A stretch of 63,379 bases of DNA, filler included, from Dugesia japonica (taxonomy: Eukaryota), in assembly GCA_001938525.1 (NCBI GenBank). It is 6 parts of 6 records of this genome, joined end to end, with 100 filler letters (N's around TTAATTAATTAA, not from the genome) between each part and the next. Parts side by side here need not be neighbours in the genome. Positions count along the whole stretch, not along the records: positions 11,995 to 21,440 come from MQRL01628283.1; 5 more parts are not named here. One strand, 5' to 3'. The notes under the pieces are model-generated. The model was not told where the DNA came from and did no database searches. It saw only the letters and a program-made list of their open reading frames with translations. The position numbers and the translations under genes are program-made. Below, in pieces: positions 2,000 to 52,760 of this stretch. Every line of letters begins with the position of its first letter. Position 1 is the stretch's first letter.

Positions 2000-4883
2000 G
2001 TATCTGCGATGCTGCTTTTTTCAACTGTTCCAAATTAAATTTTTCAAACTCCTATTGCCTATAGCTTTCATTGAAAATTAAAAATCTTCTTTTGAATTTT
2101 AAATAATGCTTTCTCGGACCCCTCTGTTAAGAACTACTGTTTAAGAGAAAGAAGACCTGTTATATTCTGAATTGTTCTGTATTTGCCTCAAAATTATGCA
2201 GACTGATAAAAATACAGAAACGTCAAACCTTCTCATACATATATTTATACAATCAGTTTCAGTTAACATTTCCCATTACTTAGTACAATATCAAACTAAA
2301 ACTTTGGATGAGCTAGACAAACTAACTGATTGTCACTTTGAAATAGAGTCCGATTCTATCAACTCTATCATCGAAAATCACGAAGAAGAGAATTCAACTT
2401 GTTCAAGCAGTTATTCAAGATCTCAATTTCATTAAAGGAAGATAGAATCATAACAATAAAATTTTAAGAGAGTTTTGTATTTTTCATCGAAAATTCGTAA
2501 AACACGCTGTAAAATGCCAATAACCATGCTCTTGGTTAACCATGCTCTTGGTTAAAAGTTACTCTGGAAAAGCCAACTTATCAAAGTAAAGCAACAGCTG
2601 AGATTCAAATCAAATCAAATTCGTTGAAATCTATTTAGTCAATATTCACGATTCCAGTTTTGTCAGAAAAACTAAAATTCTTGGTCGACTCTGGTCTGAC
2701 ATTAGTATTGTTTCTATACAACTATTTCAGCCAGATATTATAAAAAGCAGACATATGACCAATTCCAGAATGAGCAGAACTTTGAACAAAGTTAAAAGTT
2801 GTTTATTTTTTTCTACTTTAGATTTTAAGAAGGCGTATCATCAAATCCCAATCAACAAAGAGGACAGATATAAAATCGCTATTATAATTCAATAGAGATT
2901 ATTTGAATATAAATAGATTTCATTTTGACTAAAAAATATTTCACAAATATTTCAACGACACAAGGAGAAATGTTTGCAAGACTGTCGCACATACACTCCG
3001 GTATATATTGATGACAGTTTAATTCATTCAAAGAGCCCAGACGAGCATCAGACGCGTCTATATATAATAAAGGGAGTTCATCTTACAATCAAGCTGTAGA
3101 TTAACACAGAAAAAGGCCACTTCAACAAATCCTAGGTAGAATTTATTGGTTTTTTAATCTCTTTAAAATTTATAAAGCTAATACAAGATTGAAGCCATTA
3201 GCAATATGCATATTCCAAAACATTTAAATTGTTAAGACGGTTTATTTATACAATAAGATTTTATCAAAAGATGATTCCTAACTTATCAAAAACGATGTCT
3301 CCATTACATTATGTCACCAAACTCAAGGAAAAAAAAGCGCTTCAATGATTATCAACTTACAAATAAGCATTTAAAATTGCTATAAAGAAACTTATCAAGA
3401 TTATTGATATGGTAACAACAAACTATCTAAATACATTTGTNTGTATACCAATGCATCTAGTACGGCAATTAACGGCAGGTTAAACAGATGTTTAAGTCTT
3501 ATTTCATTTTTCACAAGAAAATTAAACTCTGAAGAACGAAAATATTCAAAATTCGACAGAGAACGTCTGGTATTGGTTCTCTCCGTCAAATATTTCAATC
3601 ACTACATAGCAAAAATTCATTGATCAAACAGATTATAGGCCATTACTTCATATAATACAGATGAAAAATCAATCTGCAAGACAATGGAGATGGACAGCGT
3701 TTATAAGCCAATTTGATATACAAATTCAAAGATTCTGACAACATGGTTGATGACTTTCTGTCCAGGAAAGATACAGACGACAAAAAATTAAAAGAAACTG
3801 AATATATTTCACTCTAAGACCTAGTCAAAAGCCAGAAGGACGATCAATCCCTCAAAGATATACAAAGTCACTCTCTGAAACTGAAAATAAGAAAGGAATG
3901 TGTTCTGATTGACACTCCAAAGAGCAATACAAAAATTGTTCCAACGAAATATTTTCACTTCAATGAATTCAACAGACGTCATAATCTGTGTCATCAAAGA
4001 TCAAATGTAACAATTAGATTAATGACAAGTTGCTATGTTTGACTAGGTGGAATGGTGTAGATTTTATCAAATCTGTCAAGCCAATAAAATTAATCAGCAC
4101 ACAAAATCGCCGTTATGATCGATTCCGAATCTGAGAAAATCCAAAGAGTTGCATATAAATTTGGTTGTTCTTTTACAAACCATTAAAAACAAAATGTTTA
4201 TACTAACAATGATTTATTGTGATATTTCATGAACAGAAGTAGTGGCTCTTAATTAAATTACAAAGCCGTTACTAATGAATGGATATCTTGCTTTGGAGTA
4301 TTAGAAATAATGGTAAATGGCAATAGTAGACAATTTATGCCTGAAGAATTTAACGATTTCCTTAAATTTTTGTACTTGAAAATAGGCATACAACACCATA
4401 TCACCCTTAGTTGCGGTGAAAAAAGAGAAAGATACCCTAAGTCTCTAAAAAATGCTCTACGAGATCCGGAAATTAATTTGGAACGCAGTTGGTTAGAAAA
4501 TATTTCAACTCTGAGAAAGCTTCAGAGCTATCACCGTCCCAAACAATTTTCGGAACTACTAACCGTTTATCAGGAGATATTTTTCTATAATCATGATGAC
4601 GTACAAAGGTTCCAACAGAATTTTAAAACAGCTGTCTCAGATCGCATTGAATCTCAAAAATATAAATGCCAATAGAAATTGACAAATGTCAATTTTTATG
4701 GATCAAACGCGAATTAAGAAAGCCGCCAAATCCAATTTATGAAAATCTATATCTCGTAACACAAAGAAATGAGGATGGTAAAGCTATTGAAGTAATCCNG
4801 TGAGGACAAGCAGATCGAATTTCTATTAACAAAATTCATCCTGTCTTTATATTAAACGTTCCTCCATCCGGTGGGGGGAGTAA
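2000..4883 (+). mobile_element. Degraded Ty3/Gypsy pol (RT, RNase H, integrase) with polypurine tract
   Basis: FSTLDFKKAYHQIPINKEDRYK (~2810-2880), VYIDDSLIHS (3001-3030), RNase H FTRKLNSEERKYSKFDRE (~3510-3565), integrase remnant (~3980-4675), PPT GGGGGGAG 4873-4880 then TGTAAT at 4884; many stops and frameshifts. The 5' boundary is approximate. Confidence 0.85.
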
Positions 4884-5538: not shown

Positions 5539-6008
5539 TGTGAGGTCAATTCATGAATTTAAAATATCTGAGATTTTTTTAATTTTTATATAAAATATTA
5601 AAATTGGTTTTTTGAAACTTTTAAAATATAAACATGTTTTTTTAATCTACAAATTAATTGAATAAATTATAAATATTATATTATGCAAAATTATGAAATT
5701 ATAAAAATAATTTTGTAAACTTATGTTTAAAAATAATTGTAAAATAAAAGTATTTCAAAATTAAAATTATTTTATATTATGCAAAATTATAAAATTATAA
5801 AGATTATTTTGTAAAATTAGGTTAGATAAAATAAAAGTATTTTGGAATTAAAAAAATCAATATTTTTGAAAAATATTTTATTAAAATTTCTGAGATTATT
5901 TGTTTGAATATTGTGAATTGTACTTCATCATTTTTCATTTTAATAAAAGACTTGTTATAATCAATAAAAAATTTATGGATACTTGTGAAATTTTGAATTT
6001 AACTAATA
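5539..6008 (+). mobile_element. Solo LTR (family A) in the intron just upstream of the host exon
   Basis: Starts TGTGAGGTCAATTCATGAATTTAAAATATCTGAGA and ends GAATTTAACTAATA; matches the LTR at 32722-33115, which is followed by a PBS; flanks ATTAT/ATTAA are a near 5-bp TSD. Confidence 0.7.
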
Positions 6009-11894: not shown

Positions 11895-11994
11895 NNNNNN
11901 NNNNNNNNNNNNNNNNNNNNNNNNNNNNNNNNNNNNNNTTAATTAATTAANNNNNNNNNNNNNNNNNNNNNNNNNNNNNNNNNNNNNNNNNNNN
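11895..11994. other. Artificial scaffold linker (44 N + TTAATTAATTAA + 44 N)
   Basis: Identical 100-bp spacer occurs five times; the 12-mer has stops in all six frames. Confidence 0.97.
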
Positions 11995-11999
11995 AACAG

Positions 12000-14900
12000 T
12001 GGCAAAAGAGGAATTGTTGGTAAATCAGGATCTTCTGGTGCTCTTGGTGCTAAAGGGAAGATGGGAGAAAAAGGCTTACCTGGTGATATTGGAAATAGAG
12101 GTGTTGACGGACCAATTGGTTTTGGGGATAACGGATTTTTATATGCTACTCATTCTCAAAGTAAAGTTTCTCCAATTTGCCCTGATGGAGGTATTCCTTT
12201 GTATACTGGATACAGCTTGTTAGCTATTCATGGGGATACAGACTCTGTTACTATGGATTTGGGTTTATTTAATTCACATAAATTAAACGAGTTATCATTT
12301 AATTTTAATATATATATATAGGGACTCCGGGCTCATGTTTGAAAAATTTTTCAACCATTCCTTTTGTAAATTGTTTCCTTGAAAGAAATACATTTTTTGG
12401 AGGTCGTTGTCAAATAAACATGAGAAATTCTAGGTCATATTGGCTTTCGACACTTCAAAGCTACATGTCTTCTCCTCAGCCACCATCTAAAATGGATGAC
12501 TACATATCACGGTAAGAGTAGTTTACCATTTGCTTACATGATTTAGAAAATTTGAATTGAAACACATATTAAGAAATAGAAGGTCAAGTTTATTTATTTT
12601 GTAAGAATTTTAATATGTACAATAAATATTGGAAAATGTAAAGGATGTGATGAAAAAGTAAATGTTCTATGTGAACTTTGATTTTTTTTGAAAATATACC
12701 TCTTATTTAAAATGAAACTATTTTCATTTTATTTTCAAACGTCTTAAATTGAAATTTAGTTTTAATTTCCCATGANNNNNNNNNNNNNNNNNNNNNNNNN
12801 NNNNNNNNNNNNNNNNNNNNNNNNNNNNNNNNNNNNNNNNNNNNNNNNNNNNNNNNNNNNNNNNNNNNNNNNNNNNNNNNNNNNNNNNNNNNNNNNNNNN
12901 NNNNNNNNNNNNNNNNNNNNNNNNNNNNNNNNNNNNNNNNNNNNNNNNNNNNNNNNNNNNNNNNNNNNNNNNNNNNNNNNNNNNNNNNNNNNNNNNNNNN
13001 NNNNNNNNNNNNNNNNNNNNNAATTGTAATTGTAAAAAAGCATTATATATATAGATTAGGTTATTTGCAAGCATGACAAAAGTTTATTGATTCTCATTTG
13101 AAAGAAATCTGGATTTCTTTGAATGATGTTTTGATATCGCAGTGATTTTTGAACACTTTATCCTTCAAAAAAGGATCAAGATGTTCATAGAAATGAAAGT
13201 CTATGAAATTAGGTCTGAAGAGTATNNNNNNNNNNNNNNNNNNNNNNNNNNNNNNNNNNNNNNNNNNNNNNNNNNNNNNNNNNNNNNNNNNNNNNNNNNN
13301 NNNNNNNNNNNNNNNNNNNNNNNNNNNNNNNNNNNNNNNNNNNNNNNNNNNNNNNNNNNNNNNNNTGCATTTCTCCCATTTGCTCACAGTACGATGCCAC
13401 AGTGATTGTTTCGCCAGGCTCAATTTAGGAAAATTTAATAACTCTCGCTGTGTACCACCATATAGTGAACATAGACTTCTTCTGATTTAGCTTAATTTTT
13501 TGGAAATCTTTAGGAGACTCATCAATTGATAATCATTGTGCAGAAAGTTTGCGATTATCATAAATAATCCACTTTTCATCACAAGTGATGATGCAATCCA
13601 AAAGAAATCGGTGGAATATCTTCTGAGAGATATTGTTACCTCTAGTTTATTTTTCATGTCAATTTCCGTAAGATTCTGTGGCACCAATTTATCAAGTTTC
13701 TTGACTTTGCCAATCAGCTTCAGATGTTTAAAGACAGCTGATTGAGAACCATGCATCTTTGATGCTATCTTTGACACGCTTTATCTTGGATCTTCCAGGA
13801 CTATTTGTTTTCAATCATCGTCATCAAAAGCAAAAGATCGCTTGGTTCTTTATTTATCATTTAAAAGACTGATTTCTACTTTGGAACTTCTGAAACAACT
13901 TCTCACGGTATATCAATTGAAAAGTAAAATAGAGTTTTTTTTNNNNNNNNNNNNNNNNNNNNNNNNNNNNNNNNNNNNNNNNNNNNNNNNNNNNNNNNNN
14001 NNNNNNNNNNNNNNNNNNNNNNNNNNNNNNNNNNNNNNNNNNNNNNNNNNNNNNNNNNNNNNGATGAATAAATTCAATTATTCTGAGAAATTTAAATGAT
14101 GGATTTATTGCATTTACATTTACATTGATTTTTCAAAAATGATTTTATTTTAACGATGAATTGAATTTCTTTTTTGTTTAATTTGTTGTTCTTTTATTTA
14201 TCACTATTTTTCTAATTTATTTATTTTCTCTACCAATTAAAATCTATTGGCATCGTTATATTAAACAAGTTGGATCTAATCGATATTTTATTATTATTAC
14301 AGTATTTATTTTCTTATAATTCACACGTTAAAAATTTATTTTGTGCATTATAAGAAAATAAAAAATTTCAATTTCAAAATTTATTGTATTATTAAAAAAG
14401 GACTGCAGTTAGAAATGTCATCTTTTACGTTTTTGGAAGTGTGCGTTATAAGAAATTAAAATAAATACGGTAATATATTTGTTTCCAATAATGGAAGTAG
14501 CGATAAATCATCGGAAATACCGGTCATTTTTTGACAGACATTTTTAAATAATGCTTTAACTTGAAAATAACTTGTTTTTCAAATATTAAACATGAAATCA
14601 GACAAATTTGTTGATGACACTTAAAAAAATAAAATTGTAGAATTTTAGAAGATAGTTGTCGAAAATCTGAACAAAAATTAATGAAAAAAAACAATATTTT
14701 GATATAAACTTTTAACTTAATGAAATCTCAAATGCAATCAATGGTTAAGTCTAACAATTATTCTCGTAATAATTCTAATTGTAAAATTTATGATTCATTG
14801 TATATATAAAATTTCTGATTTGATTTTGAATACTCTAATAACTACAATAAACAACAATATTTGAGTTTAATCCTAGTATTATTAAGATGTTCAGTCTGTC

Positions 14901-15321
14901 AAACCAAATCAACAGTTATGGCTTTTCATTCCCAAAGATCTGATTGGCAAATGACTAAATGCCCATATGGTTGGCAAAAACTATGGGCTGGATTTAGTTT
15001 TCCTATGGTTACTTGAATAAAATTAATTACATTGAATAATTATTTTGACAGGCTGTTCAAGCATCTAGGTCAGGCTCAAATCAGCCGTTTTCATCACCAG
15101 GTAGCTGTTTGAAACATTTCCGTTCGTTACCATTTATCGAATGTAACAATCAAAACAGCAACTGCAATCATTGGCGCGATGGTGTTTCTTACTATATGAC
15201 TGCTGTCGATTCAGAAAACCAGTTTGTTAAAGCACAAGGAAAAATCTTAAAATCACAAACAGATATCATGAACAGTATTAGTAAATGCGTTGTGTGCCAA
15301 AGAGATTTAAATATTGTCTAA
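12000..15321 (+). CDS. col4a: Collagen type IV alpha chain, 3' part (end of triple helix + NC1); exons 12000-12262, 12322-12511, 14887-15007, 15052-15321
   Basis: 13 Gly-X-Y triplets, then GFLYATHSQ...CPDG..LYTGYSLL...DLG|TPGSCL...SYWLST...ISR|CSVC...HSQ...CPYGWQKLWAGFSF...SPGSCLKHFRSLPFIEC...ISKCVVC; GT-AG introns of 59, 2375 and 44 bp keep the frame; stop at 15319-15321. Confidence 0.95.
13085..13920 (-). mobile_element. Mariner transposase relic inside the long collagen IV intron
   Basis: GKVKKLDKLVPQNL, IITCDEKWIIYDNRK and YSSDL (YSPDL) motifs across frameshifts. Confidence 0.85.
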
Positions 15322-17227: not shown

Positions 17228-17465
17228 AAACATATAACTTTTTTCTTAAAAAACATAATAGATAGGTAATTTTCTTTGAAAACATATTAGTCATACAATT
17301 TTTCTATAAAAAACATATTACTAGTGACAGTTTTCTTTATAAAACATACTAGTGATGCAATTTTTAATAAAAAATCTCATTAGCGAATCAATTTTTAATA
17401 AAAAACTCATTAGCGATGCAATTTTCGAAAATAAAACATATTAGTGTTGCAATTTTTCCATAAAA
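17228..17465. repeat. Degenerate ~30-bp tandem array (about 8 copies; AAACATATTAGTGATGCAATTTTT core)
   Basis: Units start near 17228, 17251, 17280, 17311, 17341, 17372, 17403 and 17434. Confidence 0.7.
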
Positions 17466-17761
17466 ATAATTCATTAAAGTGGAACTTTTTATTAAAAAAA
17501 ATTCACAGGCACATGATTTTGTGTGAATGTGTGATGCTCATATGTTGCACCTGAGTTGTATCCAAATTGTAATATTAATATTTTTTAGTATATTTTAATG
17601 GTTTTAGAATTTTAAAAAATTACCAGGCACATGATTTCAAGAGAATGTGTGTTACATCTTTGCTGCAACCCTATTGCATTAACTAATATTTTTACATATT
17701 TACTAATTATAAAATATATTTACAATTTTCCAAAATAGCATTTATTATTAAAACAATACAA

Positions 17762-17997
17762 CTAATTTTCATATTCGTCAGCTGCTGTAAGTATGGATTT
17801 CTTTAGAATCTCATAATGAGTCTTGTTTCTGTTATGTCCAAACTCCATTTCCAAATNTAACATGAAATCATCTATCAGCTCATCAATATCAATGCTTGTT
17901 GTTATTAAAACATGATTCCAATATTGTTCTGAATTCATAATATTGCATTCTCCCACGAATTCTGGAAAACTTTCATTCAGTATTTGAGTTGCTAGTT
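17762..17997 (-). pseudogene. Small Polinton-associated ORF, possibly a spliced second exon
   Basis: ELATQILNESFPEFVGECNIMNSEQYWNHVL...; preceded by a 44-bp GTAAG...TTTTAG intron-like segment (18041-17998). Confidence 0.4.
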
Positions 17998-18064
17998 CTA
18001 AAAATAAAATTTAATAAATTATCATTAATTAAATTTCTTACCATAAAAATGATCTTTTTACTTC

Positions 18065-18290
18065 AAAATATGTTCAACTGGTTTCTGATGTTCACAATTT
18101 TTAATAATTTGTGTTGTCTATAAGCAAATGAATCTTGATATCGAATTTTATTGTGAACAACTATCTAATGTTCTCCACATGGATTTGTAGTATGGGTATT
18201 GATGATTAAGGTAATGTTTACTGAAATATACTTATCCAAATAACTTTGATGCATACCGTTCAATTTGAATGGAACTGATAAATTAAGCAA
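18065..18290 (-). pseudogene. Polinton adenain-like cysteine protease remnant
   Basis: LIINTHTTNPCGEH*IVVHNKIRYQDSFAY resembles I.NTD...GEHW.......YFDSFG (TGG mutated to TAG); lies directly after the capsid gene. Confidence 0.7.
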
Positions 18291-18326
18291 TAAATTAAAC
18301 AATAATTCTTTCTTTATTGCAATTGT

Positions 18327-19539
18327 TTAAAATAATACTGTTCCGTTGTCTTTAATTTGAATTTCTTTTTCAAATACTCCAGAAATGAGAACATATGCTA
18401 ATGTTGTTAAAGCTTTGGCAAACTTGATATCTAATCTCAAATTCCCTTGTTGTGGTAATTGACTCTGATTTATATCGAAATGTGGAGCAAGAACAAATGT
18501 AAAGAATGGATATTTATCCTTAAAATCACTAAGTGTTATTCTACAATTCATATTCTTATCCAAATTTCCCATATTTCTTACTATAGATTGCATATATGTT
18601 GTAGCATAATTATCGTTTGTAAAATCTTGNGTATATATTTCTCGATAATCAGTGTTTTTCGTCAAGGAAACGAAAACAACATCTAGATTTTGAAATGTTG
18701 AAGTCGAGCGTTTATTTTTACCATTTTATTGTTCACCACTTTGAAATGTAACGAGAATAAAACTAGGTAATCAACGGTCACCAAAGATTTGTTCTTTATA
18801 AAACGATGAACTATCTTTACTAATTGCAAATGCATCGACATTTTTAGTTCTTATTGGATAAACAGCATTTTGCTTTTTAGTCCCATTTGATGAGCAACTA
18901 GTACTAAGAATTTAACTCGTACATGTCTAACTATTAATTTTGCATCTAGTAATACATATTTAGGTTCATTGGCTGTAGATTCCAAACAAATCTTAGAAGA
19001 TGCTCATTTCAATCGATTATGAACATTGACTCCTGGAATAAGGTATTTTAGTTGATCCATGAAATCAAGTTGTAATGAACCACATAGAGATAATTGTTTT
19101 GATTTTGCAATAAACGTTTTTCTATCTGCTTCTGACTCATATCCCATTGCTGTAAAACAAATATTCTTACTATCATCATTATAATTTATTAAAGTTTCAA
19201 TTAATGCTCTGTGAAGATAAGATCCGTTTGCACCTTCAATTTTTAAATTATTAAACGAAAGAATTACATCCTTAAAAGGTGTATGCAACACATAATTACT
19301 AGGAACTGCATCATGAGTGGCAGTCAAATCTTTGTCTGTTTTATCAACTNCCTTTACTTTAATATACAATAAAGTATCATTCAAATCCAAATATTCAGTT
19401 TGAGATCCATTTATAAAAACCTCTAAGTCACTTTGTGATTCAGAAATTGAATTCATAGGAAAAATATCTTCGAAAGTACCACTACAGCTTGTGGAGATGG
19501 TCGATGAAAAATATATAATTTAGTTTTGCCGCAAATCAT
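18327..19539 (-). pseudogene. Polinton major capsid protein (double jelly-roll), frameshifted
   Basis: FINGSQTEYLDLNDTLLYIKVK; YLHRALIETLINY; DFMDQLKYLIPGV; LDAKLIVRHVRV; AVYPIR; FKDKYPFFTFVLAP...GNLRLDIKFAKAL. Confidence 0.9.
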
Positions 19540-19542
19540 TTT

Positions 19543-19790
19543 TCAAATATTGTTCAATGTCCTCTCATTTGTAAGTTTATACGCGATGCATTTTAATTTT
19601 TTACGTTTTTTATTATTTGGTTCTGTTTTAGATTGATTTGTTAGCATATTTTCTGGTATTTTATTAGTTATACTTTGTGATAATATACCTGCTACTTTTG
19701 AAATCATACTGGTAACTCCACTAGGTAAGGAAGAAACTACATTTCCAAGTTCAGCTAATGCATCTGATTTTAATGTGGGTAGTATTTTTC
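19543..19790 (-). pseudogene. 3' part of the small ORF upstream of the capsid gene (putative core protein with basic tail)
   Basis: ILPTLKSDALAELGNVVSSLPSGV...NNKKRKKLK; position just before the capsid gene; 5' end appears removed by a deletion. Confidence 0.45.
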
Positions 19791-20158
19791 GTATCCACTC
19801 CATTTTACATAGTATTGTTTATTCTTTTCAGTTCCTTTGATTAAAATGGAACAGCTCTTGTAAATCTATTAAATATAACGATAAAAGACAAAATATACTT
19901 GTAAACTTTATTCACCTTTGAATATGGAACCATTTCTATTAGATACATTTACCATAAATCATCAATATCATATGCTTCATATGCACTTGTTGGAAATGTT
20001 TTGAACATTAATTTGTTCAGACTGTACACTATATGACTTGATAACCACTTTTTCGTCTTTCTGTTCGATTTTTTAGCTGCTTTCATCAACGTTTCTATGC
20101 CTCGAAAACCTGCCAGTTATTTTGTATCCGTCTATATTGTCTTCATTTTTGTCTCCAT
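19772..20158 (-). pseudogene. Polinton retroviral-type integrase with its catalytic core deleted (N-terminus joined to chromodomain)
   Basis: METKMKTI*TDTK*LAGFRGIETL...KKWLSSHIVYSLNK...IDDLW*MYLIEM...NKVYKYILSFIVIFNRFTRAVPF*SK, followed within ~10 nt by chromodomain-like NKQYYVKWSGY. Confidence 0.8.
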
Positions 20159-20399
20159 TACATCAATGTGATGCAAATTTCAAGTCAAAGTTAGGTAATG
20201 ATTGNNNNNNNNNNNNNNNNNNNNNNNNNNNNNNNNNNNNNNNNNNNNNNNNNNNNNNNNNNNNNNNNNNNNNNNNNNNNNNNNNNNNNNNNNNNNNNNN
20301 NNNNNNNNNNNNNNTATAAAATCACAACTTTGATTGTTCATTACTCGTCTCATTGATTTTCTATTTTTTGTGATTACAAGAGGTAATAAAGTTTTTTTA

Positions 20400-20582
20400 A
20401 TGTTTTTTCAATGTTTTCTTTTTGACTGCACTCAAATCTACATTACCACAAAAAATATTTATAATAATTTTAAGTAAATCATCTATAACATATGGTGGGA
20501 ATGATTGTAAAATTCTCATACTTAAAGGTTTTGATGATTTAATCAAAGCTGTAAAAAACGGAAGGTTTCTTTGTCATTTCAT
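20400..20582 (-). pseudogene. Conserved small Polinton ORF
   Basis: LPFFTALIKSSKPLSMRILQSFPPYVIDDLLKIIINIFCGNVDLSAVKKKTLKKH resembles the LNVL.GNV.L...KKKLKKH motif typical of Polinton ORFs between ATPase and integrase. Confidence 0.6.
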
Positions 20583-20619
20583 CTTTATTGATTAAAATAA
20601 TACATACTATTTATTTGTT

Positions 20620-20851
20620 TATGATAATCTTTTTCTGTTCTTATTTTGAGCTTCTTTCCACTTCTTTTTGTTAGTTTTTTAAACATATTCATTTGTTTCC
20701 TTTTATTTACTTGTTGCTTCTTATTTACATGATGTTTCTTATGTTATTGTTTCTTCTTTTCTCCATACTTTTACTTCTCAAAAGATATTTTTTGACGTTT
20801 AACAACACGATCTGTTACTTGATCAATTACAAATTTCTTTAATTTTGTCAT
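20620..20851 (-). pseudogene. Small lysine-rich basic ORF (possible DNA-binding/core protein), with internal stops
   Basis: MTKLKKFVIDQVTDRVVKRQKISFEK*KYGEKKKQ*HKKHHVNKKQQVNKRKQMNMFKKLTKRSGKKLKIR. Confidence 0.4.
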
Positions 20852-20874
20852 TCTTTGTAATATTATGAAAAATT

Positions 20875-21440
20875 ATCTATTTTGTTTATATAATGTGATA
20901 CCATTTGAATTTAATATATCTGTTCTTACTCTATAATCATCTGGGCATTGTTGTGTAAAGTCAAGATATAGATATCCATATGGTTTTTCTGTTGCATCCT
21001 GAAAGGATTCAATAAGAAATTGTCTGTTATTTGGACATGCTTATCTTGCTAGAAAATTAACTACAGTCTGATCTCTAGAATGTTTTTAATAGAACCAAAT
21101 ATTGCACGTTTAAATTACGAGTTCTATGACTACCTCCTTGATAAAACAGATTTTGTGTAAAAAATATCACAGTCACATTACGATATCTCGATATCTTTGT
21201 GAATAAATTATTGAAATGTTTTTCTTTATTTGCCTCCTGATACAGATCATCATCAACAACAACATCCCCTGGTCTTAATCCTTTGCTCCAATTAAAATCA
21301 AAACCATTTATAATTTTCATTTTAATATTAGAAAATTCAGATTTAGTCAGTCCATGCTTCTCATCGGCGCCCATATGCCAGTATATGTTTTTAAATTTAG
21401 ACTTGAATAACTTTGATTTCAATAATTGACATACAAACAA
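20875..21440 (-). pseudogene. Polinton A32/FtsK-family genome packaging ATPase (Walker A lies beyond the scaffold end; one frameshift)
   Basis: Walker B VVVDDDL, LFTKISRYRNVTVIFFTQNLF...SHRTRNLNVQYLVLLK, then after a shift DATEKPYGYLYLDFTQQCPDDYRVRTDI. Confidence 0.9.
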
Positions 21441-21540
21441 NNNNNNNNNNNNNNNNNNNNNNNNNNNNNNNNNNNNNNNNNNNNTTAATTAATTAANNNN
21501 NNNNNNNNNNNNNNNNNNNNNNNNNNNNNNNNNNNNNNNN
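21441..21540. other. Artificial scaffold linker
   Basis: 44 N + TTAATTAATTAA + 44 N. Confidence 0.97.
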
Positions 21541-25837: not shown

Positions 25838-26077
25838 TGAAGAATAATTCATAGTATTCAAACAAATAATCTGATAAATTTTTCAATAAAATATTTTAAA
25901 AATATCGATTTGATTTTTACGAAATATTTGACTTTATATAATAATTTCATAAAATATTTTAAAAATATCAGTTTTTAATTTTATGAAATATTTTATTTTA
26001 CTTGTTTTAAAAATAAATTTATATATATAAAAATTAAATAATCTCTCAGATATTTAAATCTATGAATGATTCTTACA
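25838..26077 (-). repeat. LTR family A copy (partial, runs into an N gap)
   Basis: Begins TGTAAGAATCATTCATAGATTTAAATATCTGAGA, nearly identical to the LTR start at 33115. Confidence 0.75.
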
Positions 26078-26199
26078 ATTACCATTGTTTTATGATCACT
26101 TAAAATTGTCACCATTATTTTTTAAATCTATCGTTATCATTATTATAAATCTAAAATAATTAAGATTATAACTGTTTATCATACTTAAAAGTATTTAAT

Positions 26200-28535: not shown

Positions 28536-28856
28536 TATTAGTTAAATTCAAAACCTTACAACTGTCCATAAAATTTTATTTATTATCACAAGATTTTTGA
28601 TTAAAGTAAAAATGATGAAGAATAATCCGTAGTATTTAAACAAATAATTTGAGAAATTTAATTTCAATTTTCAATAAAATATTAAAAAAAATATCGATTT
28701 TAATTTTACCAAAAATTTATTATTTTTAAAACATAATTTTTTAAAATAATTTTTATACTTTTATAATTTTGCCTAATATAATATATAGAAATTATTTAAA
28801 TTAATTTTCTTATAAAAATATTTTATATTTTAAAAATCTGTTTTTACTTTTTTACA
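28536..28856 (-). repeat. LTR family A copy (diverged)
   Basis: Ends GTTTTGAATTTAACTAATA like the copies ending at 32722 and 6008. Confidence 0.65.
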
Positions 28857-31792: not shown

Positions 31793-32721
31793 TATCAGTC
31801 TTTATAAATATTTGATCTTTCATTACGATAGTGACCTTTGTCTTCTCTACATACACAATCTTTTCTATTTTCCTCAATTAAATTAACGTGACTTCCATTC
31901 CTTCTCGTGTAGTTATTCGTATTGTTCGAATAATATCTTTGGTTGTCATTTCCTAATACTTTTCTGGTCTGTTCACTTATTATGATAACTAAACTGTCTG
32001 TTCATATTTGTGTAAGAGTCCTCTGTGTGATGATCTTTCTTGTTGCATCTTGAACAGCTAACTTTGGTACAGTCTCTTCTTAAGTATTGTTCAGATCCAC
32101 AAGCATTACACTTTTTTTTCTTGACAATTTTTGCTTACATGACCTATTTTATTACAGGTCCAACACGTTATTTCTCGTCTTTCGTTGTTTCTGTTCTGTT
32201 GCATTCTTACATTTTGACTCTTGTTGAAATTTGTTTGTTTTGGACTTGGGCGAACTGCATTTATATAGTTACGAACTACATTTATTTCTTCAGTTTTTAC
32301 TTCGTCTTGTATGTCTTCCCACTATTTTATTGTTTTAAATACATCGTCTACTTTTTCTATTTTTCCTGATTTGATTTAATATTTAATCTTTATGTCGTTC
32401 CAACTATTCATTATTAGCTCTTTTGTTAAGTCTTCTTTGTTCCATTTATGAGCCATTAAATTTTCTACTGATCCTTCAATCTTCTTCTTATAGATATTTA
32501 TATGCTCTCCATTCCTTCGATAATTTAAAGCTTCCTCCATATCTTTAATCATTGTTGATGGCGTAAAGAAAGCTTTTCTGAATCTTTCTTCAAATCCCAA
32601 TGATTCGTCTTCATTTTCATAGATTTCACGCAGTTCTTTATATTTTCAATATCATCGCCCAATTTGAAAATTCCAGGGTTCATGGCTTATTTTAGCAAAT
32701 CCAATGATGAGTTAGTCGCCA

Positions 32722-33115
32722 TATTAGTTAAATTCAAAACTTCACAACTCTCCATATATTGTATTTATTATTACAAGTGTATTTGATTAAAATAAAAATT
32801 ATGTCAAGAATAATTCATATTATTCAAACAAATAGTCTGAGAAATTTTTCAATAAAATAATAAATATTCTACTTTACATAAAAATTTATAAAATATTTAA
32901 AAAAAATATCGACTTTTTAATTTAATGAAATTTCTCATTTTACATAAAAATTTCATAAAATATTTGACCTAATAATTTCATAAAATAAATAAAAAAATAT
33001 CGATTTAATTTTATGGAATATTTTATTTTACATGTTTTAAAAATACATTTTAAAATTATATATAAAAATTAAAGAAAAATTTCTCAGATATTTAAATCTA
33101 TGAATAATTCTTACA
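32722..33115 (-). repeat. 5' LTR (family A, 394 bp, TG...TA)
   Basis: TGTAAGAATT...TTAACTAATA immediately followed by PBS-like TGGCGAC and gag. Confidence 0.8.
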
Positions 33116-34329
33116 AATATTAATATTTTTCATTGAGGATCCTGATGTGTCTATACTTATTTCTGAAATAGGACTAAATGATATTCAAATGTTAAATGGT
33201 ATTTTTCCAAGAAACGATGACTTTATGAAAATATGTGAAACAATTTTTATTAATTCAAACAAATGCATGATTACAGTGAAATTCTTGGATATAAGAAATT
33301 TAAAAGTAATGTTTTCCCAGTATAGAAAATTCAAAAAAATTCAAAAGATGAATTAGAAATTGATGTATTAATAAAATGTTGTTATCTTTAGGTAACTTAT
33401 CTTATTATTATTTACAAAAGGTTAGTTAAAGAAAATACTTTTATTTTTATACAGTTTAATTCAAGTACATGATTTGTTTATTCAAGTTTTTGTTTAATAA
33501 CATGTCTGAGATTGTTTTTATGCAATCATAACATGAATAAGCACATTAAGATGAATATGATAGATATATTTTTTATGGCAATACCAATTTTAAATCCTGG
33601 ATATTATAACTTCTTCCAGTAAATTTTAGGAGCTCAGTATACAGACTCATCGTTTATCATGTTTCCTTCAAAATGTTTCATAATATTTCTAATAAAAATT
33701 AGCAAATTTTAAATTTAATTAATTAAAAACATTATTCTTCATCATACAAGTTTGTAAACCAATCATTTACAGCTTCTTCATTATGTAATGATCATTTTTC
33801 TCTATCCACCTCTTTCATATTTAATGATTTTTCAAAAGAAAGTTTATGTTTATTGGCACTAATAAACAAATAATTCACAAATAATAGAAAAAACTTGATT
33901 CAAAATTATTTATCAAATCAAAAATTAAAAATCAAATTTTTAAAATCTGATAATATTAAATCAACCTGATATTGATAATATAATTTATTGATTCTAACTA
34001 ATACAACCTTTCCTGTTGAAAAGAAATTAGCACATATAGGATCAAACTTTGTAAGATGTAACCAGTGAAATAATTCTGATTCATACATACACTTGATTAC
34101 TTTGACCAATTTATACAAATTAAATTGTAAGTTCCAAATTGACTACAATTGTTAACGACTTTAATCGAATATTTTATATCATACTGCAAATCATTTGTTT
34201 CCACTGGTTTCTTGCATCACATGATTGGAAAATTTCCTGATTTAAAGAATACAATTGTATATTTTCCCGCTTTTGACAGCAACTTGTTTTTNAATTATAA
34301 TAGAGANGACCTGTTTTTTGTACCACTTT

Positions 34330-34440
34330 TTCNATATGAGGAAAACCATCTTTCAGTCTCCATGCTAGTTGGCGGAATAGTATTCAAATATTCATATGCT
34401 TCTTGTAAATTTATTCCCCGACACCCTCTTCCTTTGATAA
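34330..34440 (-). mobile_element. hAT transposase C-terminal dimerization domain remnant
   Basis: GINLQEAYEYLNTIPPTSMETERWFSS (IPPTSV.SER.FS motif). Confidence 0.65.
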
Positions 34441-34948
34441 GTTTAATAGTTTAAGGATTAGTTTATAAAATAACTATTTATTATTATTTCAAACATTTTA
34501 ATTAAATTTTTTTTCTAAAAAATGTCAGAAAGGTTTTAGCCGGATAATTTAATTTTAAATTAAGAAAAAGATTTCTCATTAAACATAATTTGTATTTGTT
34601 TGAATAAACCAATAATGATGGCCATTGTTCTTGTATTTGCGAATAAATCTTTTATAGAATCAAGTAGTGAATTCAATTCTTCAATGAGTACTTCAAACTC
34701 ATCTAACAAATATAATTTAGGTTTTATATATATCAAGGGTGTGTGTGTGTGTGATACTGTTTCTTTTCAAAGGGCATTAGCGTTAAATGAATTTTGTATG
34801 CATATCAAACGCAATATTGTAGCATCCACGCACGATGGTGGAATGCCAGGTGGAATTCCTTGATACCTTTGATTGAAAGACTTATAAAAATTTAAGCTTG
34901 TATCAAAAAACCGCTGATATAGCTTAATCAGGTAAATTTATTTAATAA

Positions 34949-41421: not shown

Positions 41422-43079
41422 AATTGTTCAATATCTTATTTTTTAATTTAATTATTCAATATTTTTCATTTTTTTAATTAATAATTTCCTTTATGGATAA
41501 AAAAAAAGAATTAATTGAAAGTTTACATGAAACTAACACCAGGAACAGTCAATTTTTACACGTTAATTGTGCATTTATCATTTAGTGATTGAAATAAAAC
41601 TTTAATATAAGTAAATACATGAAGAAGAGATATGCAATCAAGAGAAAATTACATATTGTTTTTAAAGTATTGCGAATAACAAATAAGTTAGATTTAATAT
41701 CTCTGATTCTAAGCGTTCAAATATTTGTATTAATTAGGAAATAAATGGAACAGTTAATTTTCAATAATTTTGTTAACTCTCACTTGGATTTTATAATAAA
41801 TATTGTGCTGATTTTATAAACTCGATTTATTCATTTTATGAACTCTTTCACGATATTTTAATTATTTATTGTTGAATAACATTAAAATGTTTAATTGATA
41901 TTTATAATTTTAGTTAATAATATTAATAGTTCGTTTTATTATAAATTAAATATTCACTCTAAAATCTGAGATAATTTATATCAATGGTTTATTTTATAAT
42001 ATTGATATGCAATGGTATTTATTTATATTTTCACATAAGATTTCATTGGATATAGCTATTGATTTATACACATTTCATTTACAAAATGTCTAGGAAATTT
42101 CTTTTTTACATATTTGATAATGATTAGAATAAACAATTGTGATTACAATTTATTTATTTTTCTATTGTCCTACTCATTTCGAAATATGACATCTCCATTA
42201 CACGTCCGTCAAATAGTTTTACAACATCAAAGGAAAAAGTAAATTTCAAGTTAGTAAAATACTTGATGTTTAATTGACCCACAAAAACAATTGTTTTTAC
42301 TAATATTATTTGAAATATTTATTCAGGTCAAAATAAAATAAGTTCATCAGTTAGAATCTAATTCAGGTCAGTTAACAGAAGTGTTAAGCTCTAAATAGTG
42401 CTCTACCACAATCGATATATAGAGTTTTTAGTTTAAATTAATATTTTTTAATTGATAATTATTTTTTATTTGATAAATATTTTGAAAATATAAATACACT
42501 GACTCTTAAACAGATGAAACAATAACATATAAATAATAACAATAAACATAAGTAAAACATTAAAAACAATTTTATTCTTCAAATACATTTACACCTCCTA
42601 AGCATATTATGGTGTTATTGGTAACATGCCTTTCATAGTTTTCGCAATATTCAGTTGTTTAAATGATATTAAAAGTATTAAATATTCTTTCTACATACAA
42701 GCCATAACCGTTTTAGATTAACATATTTGGAATCAGCGAAAAATTCTGTATCGCATAGACACTTTCTAAAACTATTTAAGAAGGAAAATATTTTCGAAAT
42801 ATTTTTATTTGTGTAAAATGATCGCCATAAAGTTCTCAGCAGTTTGGTATAAAAAGCTTTGAAATCTGATATATAGAACATATTTTTTCAAAACTATAGA
42901 CTATTCACCAAGGCTCCCATAAAAATTTAATTTAAAAAATTTTAAATTTTCATATCATTTAAACAACATGAACGGTTTGCCCGGATTCCTATAAAACACT
43001 CCGATAAAATTTTTTAAAAACTTTCAAATTTAAACAAATTCAACTTAAACCGAGAAAATTATCATTCAAATTCTTCTAA

Positions 43080-43940
43080 AACTTACCCTTGTGAGGAAAT
43101 AATTAACAAAATCGTCCAAAACTGACCAAAACAGACTAATGTGAGAAAAATTCGACCAATATTACATAAACCGGGTAAATAATTGATTAAATTGTCCAAA
43201 ACTGACCCAAATTAACCATTCCTGAGGAAATAGTTGACACAATTTACCTAAAAATGACCCTTGTGAGTAAATAATTTACCAAATCGCCAAAAAATGAATC
43301 AAATTCAACCAGATCGATGAAAACTTTGATTGAATCACCCAAAAGCTACCCAAACTGACCAATCACGAGGAAAATTTTGACCAAATTTACCTAAAACCGA
43401 CCAAGTTTGCCCAGATTCGACCTCACCGATGAAAAATTTGACCAATATTACCTAAACCAGGTAAATAATTGACAAAGATTTCCAAAACTGACCCAAGTTA
43501 ACCATTCCCGAGGAAATAATTTACCAAATTCACCTCAAAATTACCTTTGTGAGCAAATAATTAACCAAGTTTTTCCAGATTCGACCTCACTGATGATAAA
43601 TTTGACCAATATTACCTAAACCATCTAAAAAATTACCAATCAAGAGAAAAACTTTGACCAAGTCACCCAAAAATTACCCAAATCAACCAATTCCGAGGAA
43701 ATATTTGACCGAATTCACCTGGACCAACCAAAAATCGACCTTAATCGACCTCACCGAGTTAATTCCTAACCAAATCATTCAAAAAAATTACCTAAAACCG
43801 ACCAAGTTTGACCAAACTAACCAATCCCGAGGAAATAATTGACCGAATCGTCCAAAAAATAAACCAAATTCACCTGAACCAACCAAAAATTCGACCAATT
43901 CACCCAAAAATTACCCAAACCGAGCAATCTCGAGGAATAT
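43080..43940. repeat. Degenerate C/A-skewed satellite-like array (short (G)ACC(A)A units with higher-order GAGGAAATAATTGACC repeats)
   Basis: ACC motif recurs every ~10-12 nt; GAGGAAATA recurs near 43094, 43224, 43510, 43695 and 43829. Confidence 0.7.
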
Positions 43941-44920: not shown

Positions 44921-46300
44921 TATTTTAAATTAAAGTTAAAATTTTACATTGTGTTAAATTATAAAATTTTAAAAAATTATTTTCTAAAATGAGGGTTAAA
45001 AATAATTATTTTGGAATTTAAAAAACCAATATTTTTGAAAAATATTTTATTTAAATTTCTCACATTATTTGTTTGAAATTTTTGAATTGTTATTTCATAC
45101 TTTTATTTTTAAGAAAAGACTTGTAATAATCAATAAACAATTTATGGAGACTTGTGAGACTTTAAATTTAATTAATATGAACGAAGAGATCACATTGCTC
45201 GATTTTGCCAAAAAAACAATAAATTAAGGTTCTATAACAAAAATGATGAGAACACAAGTGAATATAATTCAATCAGCATTACAGAATCAGAGGACAACGA
45301 AGATATTCAAAACGAAACAATTAGTATAACAGAAAAGAAATTGAATAAAGAAAAATTGAAAGAGATTATAAAAAATCTAAAACCGCCAATAGAAGAAAAA
45401 CACGTCAACTTCATAAGCGGCCAAAGGGCAACACCAAAACAACAGTTAAAAAGATACGAACCAACAGTCATCTCTTACTCCAGACTAGAAAAAGCAAGAA
45501 ACACACCGATTGTATAATGCTAAGTAGCTGGTTTAACAATCAAAACTATGTTCAATATAGGTGCTGACCTTAATGTCATAAGCCAGAAGCTAGCGGAGCG
45601 TATAAGAAAACATAATCAAGCGGTTAAAATATATCACTTGACTACCAAAGTAACCTGTGCAAATCGAACAACTGAAAACTGTCTAGGTAAAATTCAATTG
45701 AATGTAGCAATCGGACCGGTAATAACAGCTCATGTCTTCGATATCATGCCAAATATTTCCCCCCATTTTTTTATCGGGTTATGAAGTATAATAAAAAATA
45801 ATAAGTTTTAGTGGACACTGCCAACGATGGAATAGAAATACAGGGTGTCAAAATTAATTTTCTGTCCTAAACTATAGCAGCTGAGTCAATAAAAAACTAA
45901 TTCCAACAGTATTGATGAGTCAAAATGCCTGAATCGGTAGAAATGAGACTCATGATAATAATTATAATGATAAAAATTATAGAGTGATTGTAGCAGAGAA
46001 TGTTAGTATAAGTGATAAAGGAGAATATTTTGTATGGTGATAAATGAAACAAAGCAGAGAGTAAAAGATATGAATGAAGATTTTCGTTATTTACAGGAGA
46101 TTAAAGAAAAATGGCAGAAAGGAATATTTTGATTATTGATGACTTAGTGGAAAACAACGATGGATATAAATGGTCTTTGACCTTGATGACCTTATTCTAA
46201 AAAGAAAAGTGTTAAGATATTAAGAAACAAGAGAATTACAACAGAAATCGATGGAACAAGGAGATCGTGTAAGGAGACAAGGTTATGATAAATGCCAAGA
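44921..46300 (+). mobile_element. Partial family-A LTR (44921-45177) followed by a Gypsy gag/protease remnant
   Basis: LTR ends ...AATTTAATTAATA; protease MFNIGADLNVIS...FFIGL (45548-45784); AAAAAAC-TAA slippery-like site near 45891. Confidence 0.7.
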
Positions 46301-51941: not shown

Positions 51942-52620
51942 CAAGTACGGTAGAATATGTATCAGCAATCCAACTCATTTCTTTCTCCCCGGTTCCCATG
52001 TCTGGTGCTGGAACGTCCGTTGCCGGTCCTGAATTAATAAAAATATTATAATAGTTCAAAAAAAGAATAATTGCCTACCTAGGAATCCTTTTTTATACAG
52101 TTCCATTGTAAATCTTCTAGTTAAACGCTCCAATTCACCAATAGAATAATTTTTAGGATTTATTTGAACTCCAGCTTTTGCACCCCCAAATGGGACATCA
52201 ACCACAGCACATTTATAAGTCATTAGTGATGCCAACGCTTTAACTTCGTCTTTAGAAACATCATCACTGTAACGAATTCCTTTTTTAGATCAATAAATTG
52301 CAAATAAATTTAATTTGATAACCTCCTTTTGTTGGAGTTCTATGAACACTGTGTTGCGCTCGCCAAGCATTAATATTTTCCAGCATACCATTATCCCTTT
52401 TGAATGCTACGTTAATAGCGAGAACAAAATGACATCGTCTCATTTTACCCAATATTCCGCTCACAAATTTTTCTTTTTCACTTTCAGGAATTTTCATCTT
52501 TAATTCATCTATTAATTGAGGTTTGATAATTTCAGCAGCACAATCAAAAAACCCTTCGACCATTTTGAAGAATGGAATTTCATCTGTTTTATTTGTTGAA
52601 AATCTTCGTATAAATGACAT
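51942..52620 (-). CDS. gdh: Glutamate dehydrogenase (mitochondrial), first three exons: 52620-52323, 52279-52079, 52028-51942
   Basis: [10 protein letters not shown]...[15 protein letters not shown]|IRYS...[26 protein letters not shown]...RRFTMEL..KGFLG|[24 protein letters not shown]; 43- and 50-bp GT-AG introns. Exon 3 donor uncertain. Confidence 0.96.
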
Positions 52621-52760
52621 TTGATTTGATTTAAAAAAGGAATTGATTAATTAATTAAATAAATTTAATTCTATTATGTATTGATTTTATTATAGAATCT
52701 AATATTTTTAACATAATGTAAATTAACGAGCACGATTATTTTGAAGTCATTCATTTAGAC

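What the first reader, a model, noticed from the sequence alone, without database searches (positions are those of the whole stretch)
17760..21440. Endogenous Polinton/adintovirus-like element retaining most of its virion morphogenesis module
Seen: one strand carries a packaging ATPase, a basic ORF, a small conserved ORF, an integrase, a core-like ORF, a double-jelly-roll major capsid protein and an adenain-like protease, all decayed. Established: this is the Polinton/Maverick gene set. Inference: this invertebrate lineage was colonised by a capsid-encoding Polinton virus, possibly an uncharacterised family. The protein-primed polymerase B should lie beyond the scaffold break at 21440.
Basis: partly seen in the sequence, partly recalled or inferred. 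Interest (0 to 1): 0.75.

Follow-up and report, generated by a model that had tools for sequence, protein, structure and literature searches.

The report
Decayed Polinton capsid block, penton deleted
This is an ordinary broken remnant of a virus-like jumping element (a Polinton) in an animal genome: its major capsid gene is full length but disrupted, its minor capsid gene is missing and no polymerase gene lies in the window, so it likely cannot make particles or move by itself.

Summary
The gene block is real. The minus strand of 17.8-21.4 kb carries decayed Polinton genes in the order of intact metagenomic relatives: A32-type ATPase (65-72% identity), basic ORF, two small ORFs, integrase N-terminus plus chromodomain scrap, half a core-like gene, a full-length but broken double-jelly-roll capsid gene (72% to its best relative, whose model matches iridovirus/PBCV-1 capsids) and a protease fragment. 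Three corrections: the penton and the integrase core are deleted (about 1.8 kb); most of the protease is gone; and pPolB lies past the protease in 6 of 6 relatives, so it was probably lost on the left rather than hidden beyond 21440. A decayed Polinton-type TBP gene lies at 33.9-34.3 kb. Public DNA runs hold thousands of related contigs, so this is one fossil of a large family. Identity to catalogued families was not testable. Side lead: an ATAAAC box precedes 130 of 213 gene starts in relatives; this scan already noted TBP-plus-box Polintons on other DNA. Ordinary; low interest.

The parts
20879..21440 (-). A32/FtsK-type packaging ATPase pseudogene, one frameshift near 21085; starts just after Walker A, which falls in the scaffold linker
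   Evidence: 65-72% identity to ATPases of L003-L008, L014; relatives hit Pox_A32 PF04665; profile iE 5e-49
20585..20851 (-). K/R-rich basic ORF with internal stops, ATAAAC box 38 nt upstream
   Evidence: same position and composition as 50-70 aa basic ORFs of relatives; no sequence match; box
20427..20582 (-). conserved small ORF (first half of about 105 aa), ATAAAC box 40 nt upstream
   Evidence: 35-49% identity, profile iE 6e-18
19980..20201 (-). tiny conserved ORF overlapping the integrase start in another frame
   Evidence: 17.3 bits, 0 of 200 control stretches reach it; tblastn E 3e-5
19835..20161 (-). RVE integrase N-terminal ~120 residues with stops; the rest of the catalytic core is deleted
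   Evidence: 41-49% identity to close relatives; relatives hit rve PF00665
19785..19838 (-). scrap of the integrase C-terminal chromodomain between two deletion junctions; holds the ATAAAC box that precedes the penton in relatives
   Evidence: 21.1 bits, 0 of 200 controls
19540..19791 (-). C-terminal half of the core-like gene (penton and first half of the core gene deleted upstream)
   Evidence: weak: 6.4 bits, 1 of 200 controls; pairwise E 0.008-0.15 within the region; position directly before MCP
18330..19539 (-). double-jelly-roll major capsid protein pseudogene, full length, two frameshifts (near 19480 and 18875) and three in-frame stops; ATAAAC box 41 nt upstream
   Evidence: 72% identity over 408 columns to P0001; P0001 model pLDDT 83.7 matches DJR capsids
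18099..18233 (-). adenain-like (C5) protease fragment around the catalytic His and Asp; C-terminal part with the Cys not found
   Evidence: profile iE 2.5e-5, 0 of 200 controls; relative L033 hits Peptidase_C5 E 1e-7
17762..18010 (-). orphan ORF (about 72 aa), not part of the protease; multi-copy; membership of the element uncertain
   Evidence: one close relative P0165, 78%; no Pfam; no match among 881 ORFs of 75 related loci
   Evidence: 38-52% identity to TBP-like ORFs of related loci, E down to 4e-15, profile iE 1.7e-14, PF00352 E 0.003
21441..21540 (.). scaffold linker (44 N + 12 bases + 44 N; the same pattern occurs five times in the window) that cuts the ATPase
   Evidence: that it is an assembly join is inferred

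Best explanation
This is a dead, internally deleted copy of a capsid-encoding Polinton (Maverick) that belongs to a large repeat family and likely inserted through its own integrase just downstream of a host collagen IV gene. Shown: homology and order of the genes, the broken frames, the missing penton and integrase core, the absence of pPolB from the window, and many related copies in public DNA runs. Inferred: the parent element worked like other Polintons (pPolB copies the DNA, the RVE integrase inserts it, and the A32 ATPase, MCP, penton and C5 protease would build and mature an icosahedral particle). After insertion this copy likely lost about 1.8 kb in two deletions (integrase core; integrase end + penton + half the core gene), lost its right arm (protease end, exonuclease-like gene, pPolB, terminal repeat), was likely split from its left arm (TBP-like gene) by Gypsy insertions, and decayed by point mutation. 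It now has no coding function of its own.
For: Homology. Fold of natural relatives: MCP model matches iridovirus and PBCV-1 capsids (E 2e-16, TM 0.63-0.68); the gene missing here folds like mavirus and adenovirus pentons (E 2e-7). Gene order of 75 related loci. ATPase-to-MCP spacing 1340 nt here against 3104-4059 in 8 of 8 relatives. Collagen IV exons end at 15318 on the same side of the linker. 17,108 and 12,699 contigs of two DNA runs lie on the stretch, most 80-95% alike. Of 30 and 46 RNA reads laid, none was 99% alike and one 95-99%. In print, 96% of vertebrate Maverick loci are such fossils (PMC8097293, passages).
Against: No terminal inverted repeat or target-site duplication was found, so the element's ends and its insertion by integrase are not shown. 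The core-like assignment is weak. Only 3 of 8 TBP-bearing relatives have TBP upstream of the ATPase, and a scaffold linker lies between the two parts, so the TBP gene may belong to another copy. No listed contig of the laid runs spans the stretch and none of the joints shown matches the two deletion junctions (most joints not shown), so the junctions rest on this assembly alone. No genome was available.
Confidence: 0.9

Rival explanations
1. The block is an assembly chimera: pieces of several copies of a high-copy Polinton family were collapsed or mis-joined, so the deletions and part of the decay are artefacts.
For: Draft assembly with many gaps; very high family depth; the best DNA run holds only 0.36 of the sampled words; no contig spans the stretch.
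Against: The pieces are colinear with intact relatives and all on one strand; MCP is covered end to end without gaps; 1,228 contigs of X1 are 99% or more alike to the stretch, so sequence like this copy exists in reads.
Confidence: 0.07
2. It is a non-autonomous Polinton derivative that was amplified after the deletions, mobilised in trans by intact family members (like Polinton-N elements).
For: Non-autonomous Polintons are listed in PMC4028283 Table S1. Depth stays high on both sides of the junction region.
Against: No terminal repeats found; depth falls 20-fold or more below 18290, so most family members do not continue as this copy does; no listed joint reproduces the junctions.
Confidence: 0.08
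3. The host has domesticated the capsid or another gene of the element.
For: MCP is retained at full length while neighbours are deleted.
Against: MCP has two frameshifts and three stops; no RNA read 99% alike among 76 laid.
Confidence: 0.01
4. The contig is a contaminant or a free virus joined into the scaffold, not an endogenous element.
For: Nearest intact relatives come from metagenome assemblies.
Against: Decayed frames; GC like the flanks; collagen IV exons 2.4 kb away without a scaffold linker in between, only two small gaps; thousands of related contigs in runs of one animal label.
Confidence: 0.02

Closest known systems
Polintons/Mavericks with capsid genes (class Polintoviricetes), e.g. 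Polinton-1_SM and Polinton-2_SM of Schmidtea mediterranea, Polinton-1_HM of Hydra (PMC4028283, part 1 of the text and Table S1)
   Same: Same gene set in the family: pPolB, RVE integrase, A32 ATPase, C5 protease, DJR MCP, penton one gene upstream of MCP.
   Different: This copy lacks penton, pPolB, integrase core and termini. Sequence identity to the named elements could not be tested: their sequences are not held by the tools.
Degraded Maverick fossils (PMC8097293, passages)
   Same: Stops, frameshifts, deletions, no discernible terminal repeats; 96% of the vertebrate loci in that study are like this.
   Different: Invertebrate host; MCP about 406 aa; family carries a TBP-like gene and an exonuclease-like ORF not among the eight vertebrate core genes.
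Adintoviruses, Alpha and Beta (PMC8502044, passages and section 3.4)
   Same: Animal-associated, hexon/penton/adenain/FtsK/integrase module; 3 of 4 pPolBs of relatives give no PF03175 hit, as described for the divergent Beta class.
   Different: No gasdermin-like or PLA2-like accessory gene was looked for or seen; no named adintovirus protein among the top sequence hits (searches show no informative names); TBP is mentioned in that paper only in a figure legend on MELD viruses.
Unnamed metagenomic Polinton-like contigs L003-L008, L014, L027 and proteins P0001-P0032
   Same: Same order ATPase, basic, small, tiny, INT, penton, core, MCP, PRO; MCP 55-72% identical to the window's; same ATAAAC box.
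   Different: They have open frames and keep penton, exonuclease-like gene and (where long enough) pPolB.

Membership tests
Polinton/Maverick (autonomous element) | Protein-primed PolB gene | tested here: not met
   No hit in the window with a 4-sequence profile (best iE 0.57) or tblastn; present in 6 of 75 related loci. So this copy is filed as a Polinton-derived fossil, not as a complete Polinton.
Polinton/Maverick (autonomous element) | RVE integrase with D,D,E core | tested here: inconclusive
   Homologous N-terminus and chromodomain scrap present, core deleted; whole in relatives.
Polinton/Maverick (autonomous element) | Terminal inverted repeats with AG/AGT ends and 6-bp target-site duplication | tested here: not met
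   No flanking inverted repeat among the 25 longest of 253 pairs shown; no AGTAG or AGAGAG on the + strand at 15.3-18.3 kb. The left end may lie in a gap.
Polintovirus morphogenesis module | Double-jelly-roll major capsid protein | tested here: met
   72% identical, colinear relative P0001 folds as DJR; gene broken in the window.
Polintovirus morphogenesis module | Single-jelly-roll penton | tested here: not met
   Absent from the window; present in 40 of 75 related loci and folds like mavirus/adenovirus penton.
Polintovirus morphogenesis module | A32/FtsK-like packaging ATPase | tested here: met
   65-72% identical to relatives that pass the Pox_A32 cut-off; Walker A not visible, frame broken.
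Polintovirus morphogenesis module | Adenain-like cysteine protease (His, Asp, Cys) | tested here: inconclusive
   Only profile positions 28-76 of 122 match; the Cys region is not found.
Polintovirus morphogenesis module | Virions formed | not testable with these tools
   No particle data.
Catalogued planarian families Polinton-1_SM / Polinton-2_SM | High nucleotide identity to the Repbase entry | not testable with these tools
   Entries are listed in PMC4028283 Table S1 but their sequences are not held; host species not verified here.
Beta adintovirus | Beta-class PolB and Terrapene-class virion genes (GasderminX, Cupiennin) | tested here: inconclusive
   pPolB of relatives lacks a PF03175 hit in 3 of 4; no named references to compare; likeness of the core gene to 'cupiennin' is recalled, not tested.

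The most novel reading that the evidence does not exclude
The fossil belongs to a TBP-encoding Polinton family that switches on its packaging and capsid genes with its own single-module TATA-binding protein reading a private ATAAAC box about 40 nt before each late start codon. The box precedes 130 of 213 distinct gene starts in relatives (15.8 expected by shuffling; 0 of 9 TBP starts), and survives 38, 40 and 41 nt before the three locatable starts of this copy.
Probability: 0.35. Interest if true: 0.55.

Novelty: new member of a known kind. Interest (0 to 1): 0.18.

Why it matters
As a locus it matters little: it is one of probably many fossils of a capsid-encoding Polinton family, a kind in print since 2014 and known from planarians and most invertebrate phyla. 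Its use is as a marker of a large family in this host and as a record of how such elements decay (penton and integrase core lost, capsid gene kept in length). The only part that could interest a specialist is the family's TBP-like gene with a position-fixed upstream box, which would give Polintons a self-encoded early/late switch; that idea comes from earlier notes of this scan on other genomes, and here it gains a further box variant but no functional proof.

Tried and rejected
Pfam on the window's own 12 Polinton fragments: no relevant family at E 0.1. Pfam on the 32 MCP relatives: only 2 of 32 hit DJR-like PF21738, best E 0.005. PDB sequence search with the MCP profile: 0 hits; with a relative's pPolB: 2 chance hits. 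IMG/VR scans: no relative in two scans. Whole-genome search impossible, no genome held. VIA-align fold search not run, machine busy. Host naming through the GDH exon: one unnamed hit. ESM Atlas on the orphan ORF: best score 0.76, uninformative. Rejected: pPolB or exonuclease-like gene elsewhere in the window; ORF 18010-17762 as protease C-terminus; the element lying inside the collagen IV gene (the gene's last NC1 exon ends at 15318); the TATAAG/TAAGA box of earlier notes in this family (TATAAG in 0-2 starts per gene class). No tree was built: no named reference sequences were available. Search of the adintovirus paper's supplement for Schmidtea, Dugesia, Girardia, TBP, TATA: no hit (figures and any cut part of the file are not searchable).
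Full report
Setting. The window is 27% GC with many gaps. It holds collagen IV exons (11947-15318, PF01413 E 2.5e-19), glutamate dehydrogenase exons and several Gypsy-type LTR retrotransposon remnants (Pfam on 92 further stop-to-stop ORFs of 70 aa or more), so the host is an animal. An earlier AI note on the same genome calls it a planarian; I did not verify this (one search gave one unnamed hit). No whole genome is held.

Observation. Three-frame translation of 17.6-21.5 kb shows protein-like pieces on the minus strand only, broken by stops and frameshifts. Pfam recognised none of 12 pieces. A search with the longest piece (19007-19519) found 32 proteins of 405-417 aa among 391 candidates, 41-73% identical. 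The best, P0001, aligns to 19539-18333 in three frames over residues 1-405 of 406, 72% identical overall, with two frameshifts and three in-frame stops and no gaps. Its model (32-sequence alignment, pLDDT 83.7, pTM 0.85) matches double-jelly-roll capsids: grouper iridovirus E 2.4e-16, PBCV-1, Sputnik, mavirus (266 PDB chains at E 0.001 or better). The top predicted-structure hit is a Cotesia sesamiae bracovirus protein (25% identity, E 1e-26); a Polinton in that bracovirus is listed in PMC4028283 Table S1, and I infer the hit is its capsid.

Gene order. The MCP profile found 75 metagenomic loci among 336 candidate stretches. The long ones read (TBP) - ATPase - basic - small - tiny - integrase - penton - core - MCP - protease - exonuclease-like, with pPolB convergent on the other strand. 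Pfam names in these relatives: Pox_A32, rve, Chromo, Peptidase_C5, TBP. The large opposite-strand ORF is pPolB: PF03175 E 7e-13 in L063, and L004 is 31% identical to it over 1121 columns. 'Exonuclease-like' and 'core' are my labels from recalled motifs and position; Pfam gave none. The gene between integrase and core folds as a penton (24-sequence alignment, pLDDT 89.6; mavirus penton E 2e-7, adenovirus penton bases).

What the window keeps and lacks. Profiles from these relatives against six frames of the whole window (reversed-window control best iE 0.13) hit ATPase (5e-49), integrase N-terminus (1e-33), small ORF (6e-18), TBP (1.7e-14) and protease (2.5e-5, positions 28-76 of 122). They found nothing for penton (26 sequences), exonuclease-like (16; best iE 0.8), pPolB (4; best 0.57), and at whole-window scale nothing for core (45) or tiny (6). 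Local tests against 200 random stretches: tiny 0 of 200 reach the score, protease 0, chromodomain scrap 0, core 1, penton 95. The ATPase-to-MCP distance is 1340 nt here and 3104-4059 in 8 of 8 relatives; the difference fits loss of the integrase core, the integrase end, the penton and half the core gene. The ATPase is cut by the scaffold linker just after where Walker A would be. The ORF at 18010-17762 is not protease; it has one close unnamed relative, a 72-aa protein (4 hits at E 0.001, the other three low-complexity-like).

Where pPolB should be. pPolB is seen in 6 of 75 loci, in all 6 downstream of MCP/protease. In the window that side is a tandem repeat, AT-rich repeats and the collagen IV 3' end, so pPolB was most likely lost from this copy. 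Beyond 21440 lie a TAA run, Gypsy remnants (21.9-25 kb, 27-32.6 kb) and, at 34279-33930 on the same strand, a decayed TBP-like gene 38-52% identical to those of the relatives. TBP lies upstream of the ATPase in 3 of 8 TBP-bearing loci (L004, L005, L008, whose MCPs are 56-57% identical to P0001) and elsewhere in 5 (MCPs 28-44%). Same-copy origin is therefore plausible, not shown. No terminal repeat or target-site duplication was found.

Family and expression. 14 of 24 listed runs hold part of the stretch, none half of it. On 17700-20200, 17,108 contigs of run X1 and 12,699 of X2 were laid; in X1 1,228 are 99% or more alike, 3,574 95-99%, 6,857 90-95% and 5,449 80-90%. Summed depth over MCP is about 5.8e4-8.3e5 in X1 and drops to 0.8-2.9e3 below 18290; the tool warns that this is no copy number, but it shows a large, diverse family of which most members do not continue as this copy does. 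In two RNA runs (about 6% and 25% read) 30 and 46 reads were laid, on both strands, none 99% alike and one 95-99%: low-level transcription of other copies, none traceable to this one, with the caveat of strain differences. No listed contig spans the stretch.

Literature. PMC4028283 (part 1 of 4 of the text; Table S1 whole): 46 of 72 Polintons have full-length MCP, the penton is usually one gene from MCP, and four S. mediterranea entries are listed, two with MCP, penton, ATPase and protease. PMC10748475 (passages; 1 row of Table S2 and 31 of 748 rows of Table S3): pPolB1 Polintons in 17 of 23 invertebrate phyla and 748 integrase-linked copies in 8 of 73 flatworm genomes. PMC8532177 (passages): planarian Polintons are repressed by SMEDWI-2/piRNAs. 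PMC8097293 (passages): 96% of vertebrate loci are degraded. PMC8502044 (passages, section 3.4, supplement search): adintovirus classes; TBP appears once, in the Fig. 5 legend on MELD viruses. PMC11161782 and PMC6431247 (passages): background. Three searches for a Polinton TBP with promoter listed no paper on it; subscription papers and bioRxiv supplements are not covered.

Side lead. Earlier notes of this scan describe Polinton TBP genes with family-specific boxes in other genomes. Their TATAAG box is not enriched here. Instead ATAAAC, picked by eye and so post hoc, stands in 130 of 213 distinct 80-nt upstream windows of nine gene classes (shuffled mean 15.8; 10% of random plus-strand and 1% of minus-strand windows), mostly 30-60 nt before the ATG; it is in 0 of 9 TBP and 2 of 4 pPolB windows and only 2 of 12 integrase windows. 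The relatives are related to each other, so the counts are not independent. In the window it lies 38, 40 and 41 nt before the basic ORF, small ORF and MCP (background 0.018 per 30-nt slot). Against a private code: with a preceding T it is close to a canonical TATA box, it equals the Forkhead consensus (recalled), and no binding or start-site data exist.

Verdict. Real, correctly recognised as Polinton-derived, less complete than claimed, and of a well-known kind. It works like nothing now; its parent likely worked like other capsid-encoding Polintons. It fails the tests for an autonomous Polinton (no pPolB, no termini) and is filed as a fossil fragment. Left open: identity to catalogued families, the reality of the junctions in long reads, and whether the family forms particles. 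Interest 0.18.

Noticed in passing
window 33930-34279 (-), with further ORF-like pieces 33300-34900: Decayed Polinton-type TBP-like gene; neighbouring pieces match no ORF of the 75 related loci but several ATAAAC sites lie on the same strand.
   Followed up: partly
L004:9125-12391, L008:10212-14105, L027:2818-6474, L063:13687-17724: All 4 full-length pPolBs of relatives carry an endonuclease VII/HNH-like insert (PF02945, E 8e-6 to 2e-4); PMC10748475 treats an HNH insert as special to nematode and oomycete pPolB2, PMC11161782 says such inserts are diverse.
   Followed up: no
L008:5616-7684, L009:2-1830, L026:1432-3475; L063: Tandem duplicated penton genes in some relatives; L063 has two penton-like genes on the opposite strand.
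   Followed up: no
L008:225-719, L006:952-1260: Accessory host-like genes in the left arm of relatives: ubiquitin-conjugating enzyme (E 2e-12) and dual-specificity phosphatase (E 1e-20).
   Followed up: no
window 17762-18010 (-): Orphan 72-aa ORF, multi-copy in DNA runs, one unnamed relative at 78%; function unknown.
   Followed up: partly
window 11947-15318 (+): 3' exons of a collagen IV gene (triple helix end and two NC1 repeats); Polinton block starts 2.4 kb downstream, convergent.
   Followed up: partly
window 17240-17466 and 16639/17491/17609: 31-bp tandem array (7.5 copies) and a thrice-repeated 59-bp unit at the right border of the block; origin unknown.
   Followed up: no
window 2.6-4.7 kb, 9.5-10.4 kb, 21.9-25.2 kb, 27.4-32.6 kb, 39.7-40 kb, 45.2-46 kb: Several decayed Gypsy-type LTR retrotransposon remnants (RT, RNase H, integrase, zinc knuckle, protease hits).
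   Followed up: no
window 5768-6008, 25840-26081, 28536-28785, 32720-33119, 44998-45179: A dispersed 150-300 bp AT-rich repeat in both orientations, possibly a MITE.
   Followed up: no
window 52059-52650 (-): First exons of a glutamate dehydrogenase gene.
   Followed up: partly
window 43077-43937: Complex degenerate tandem array with 50-60 bp subunits.
   Followed up: no
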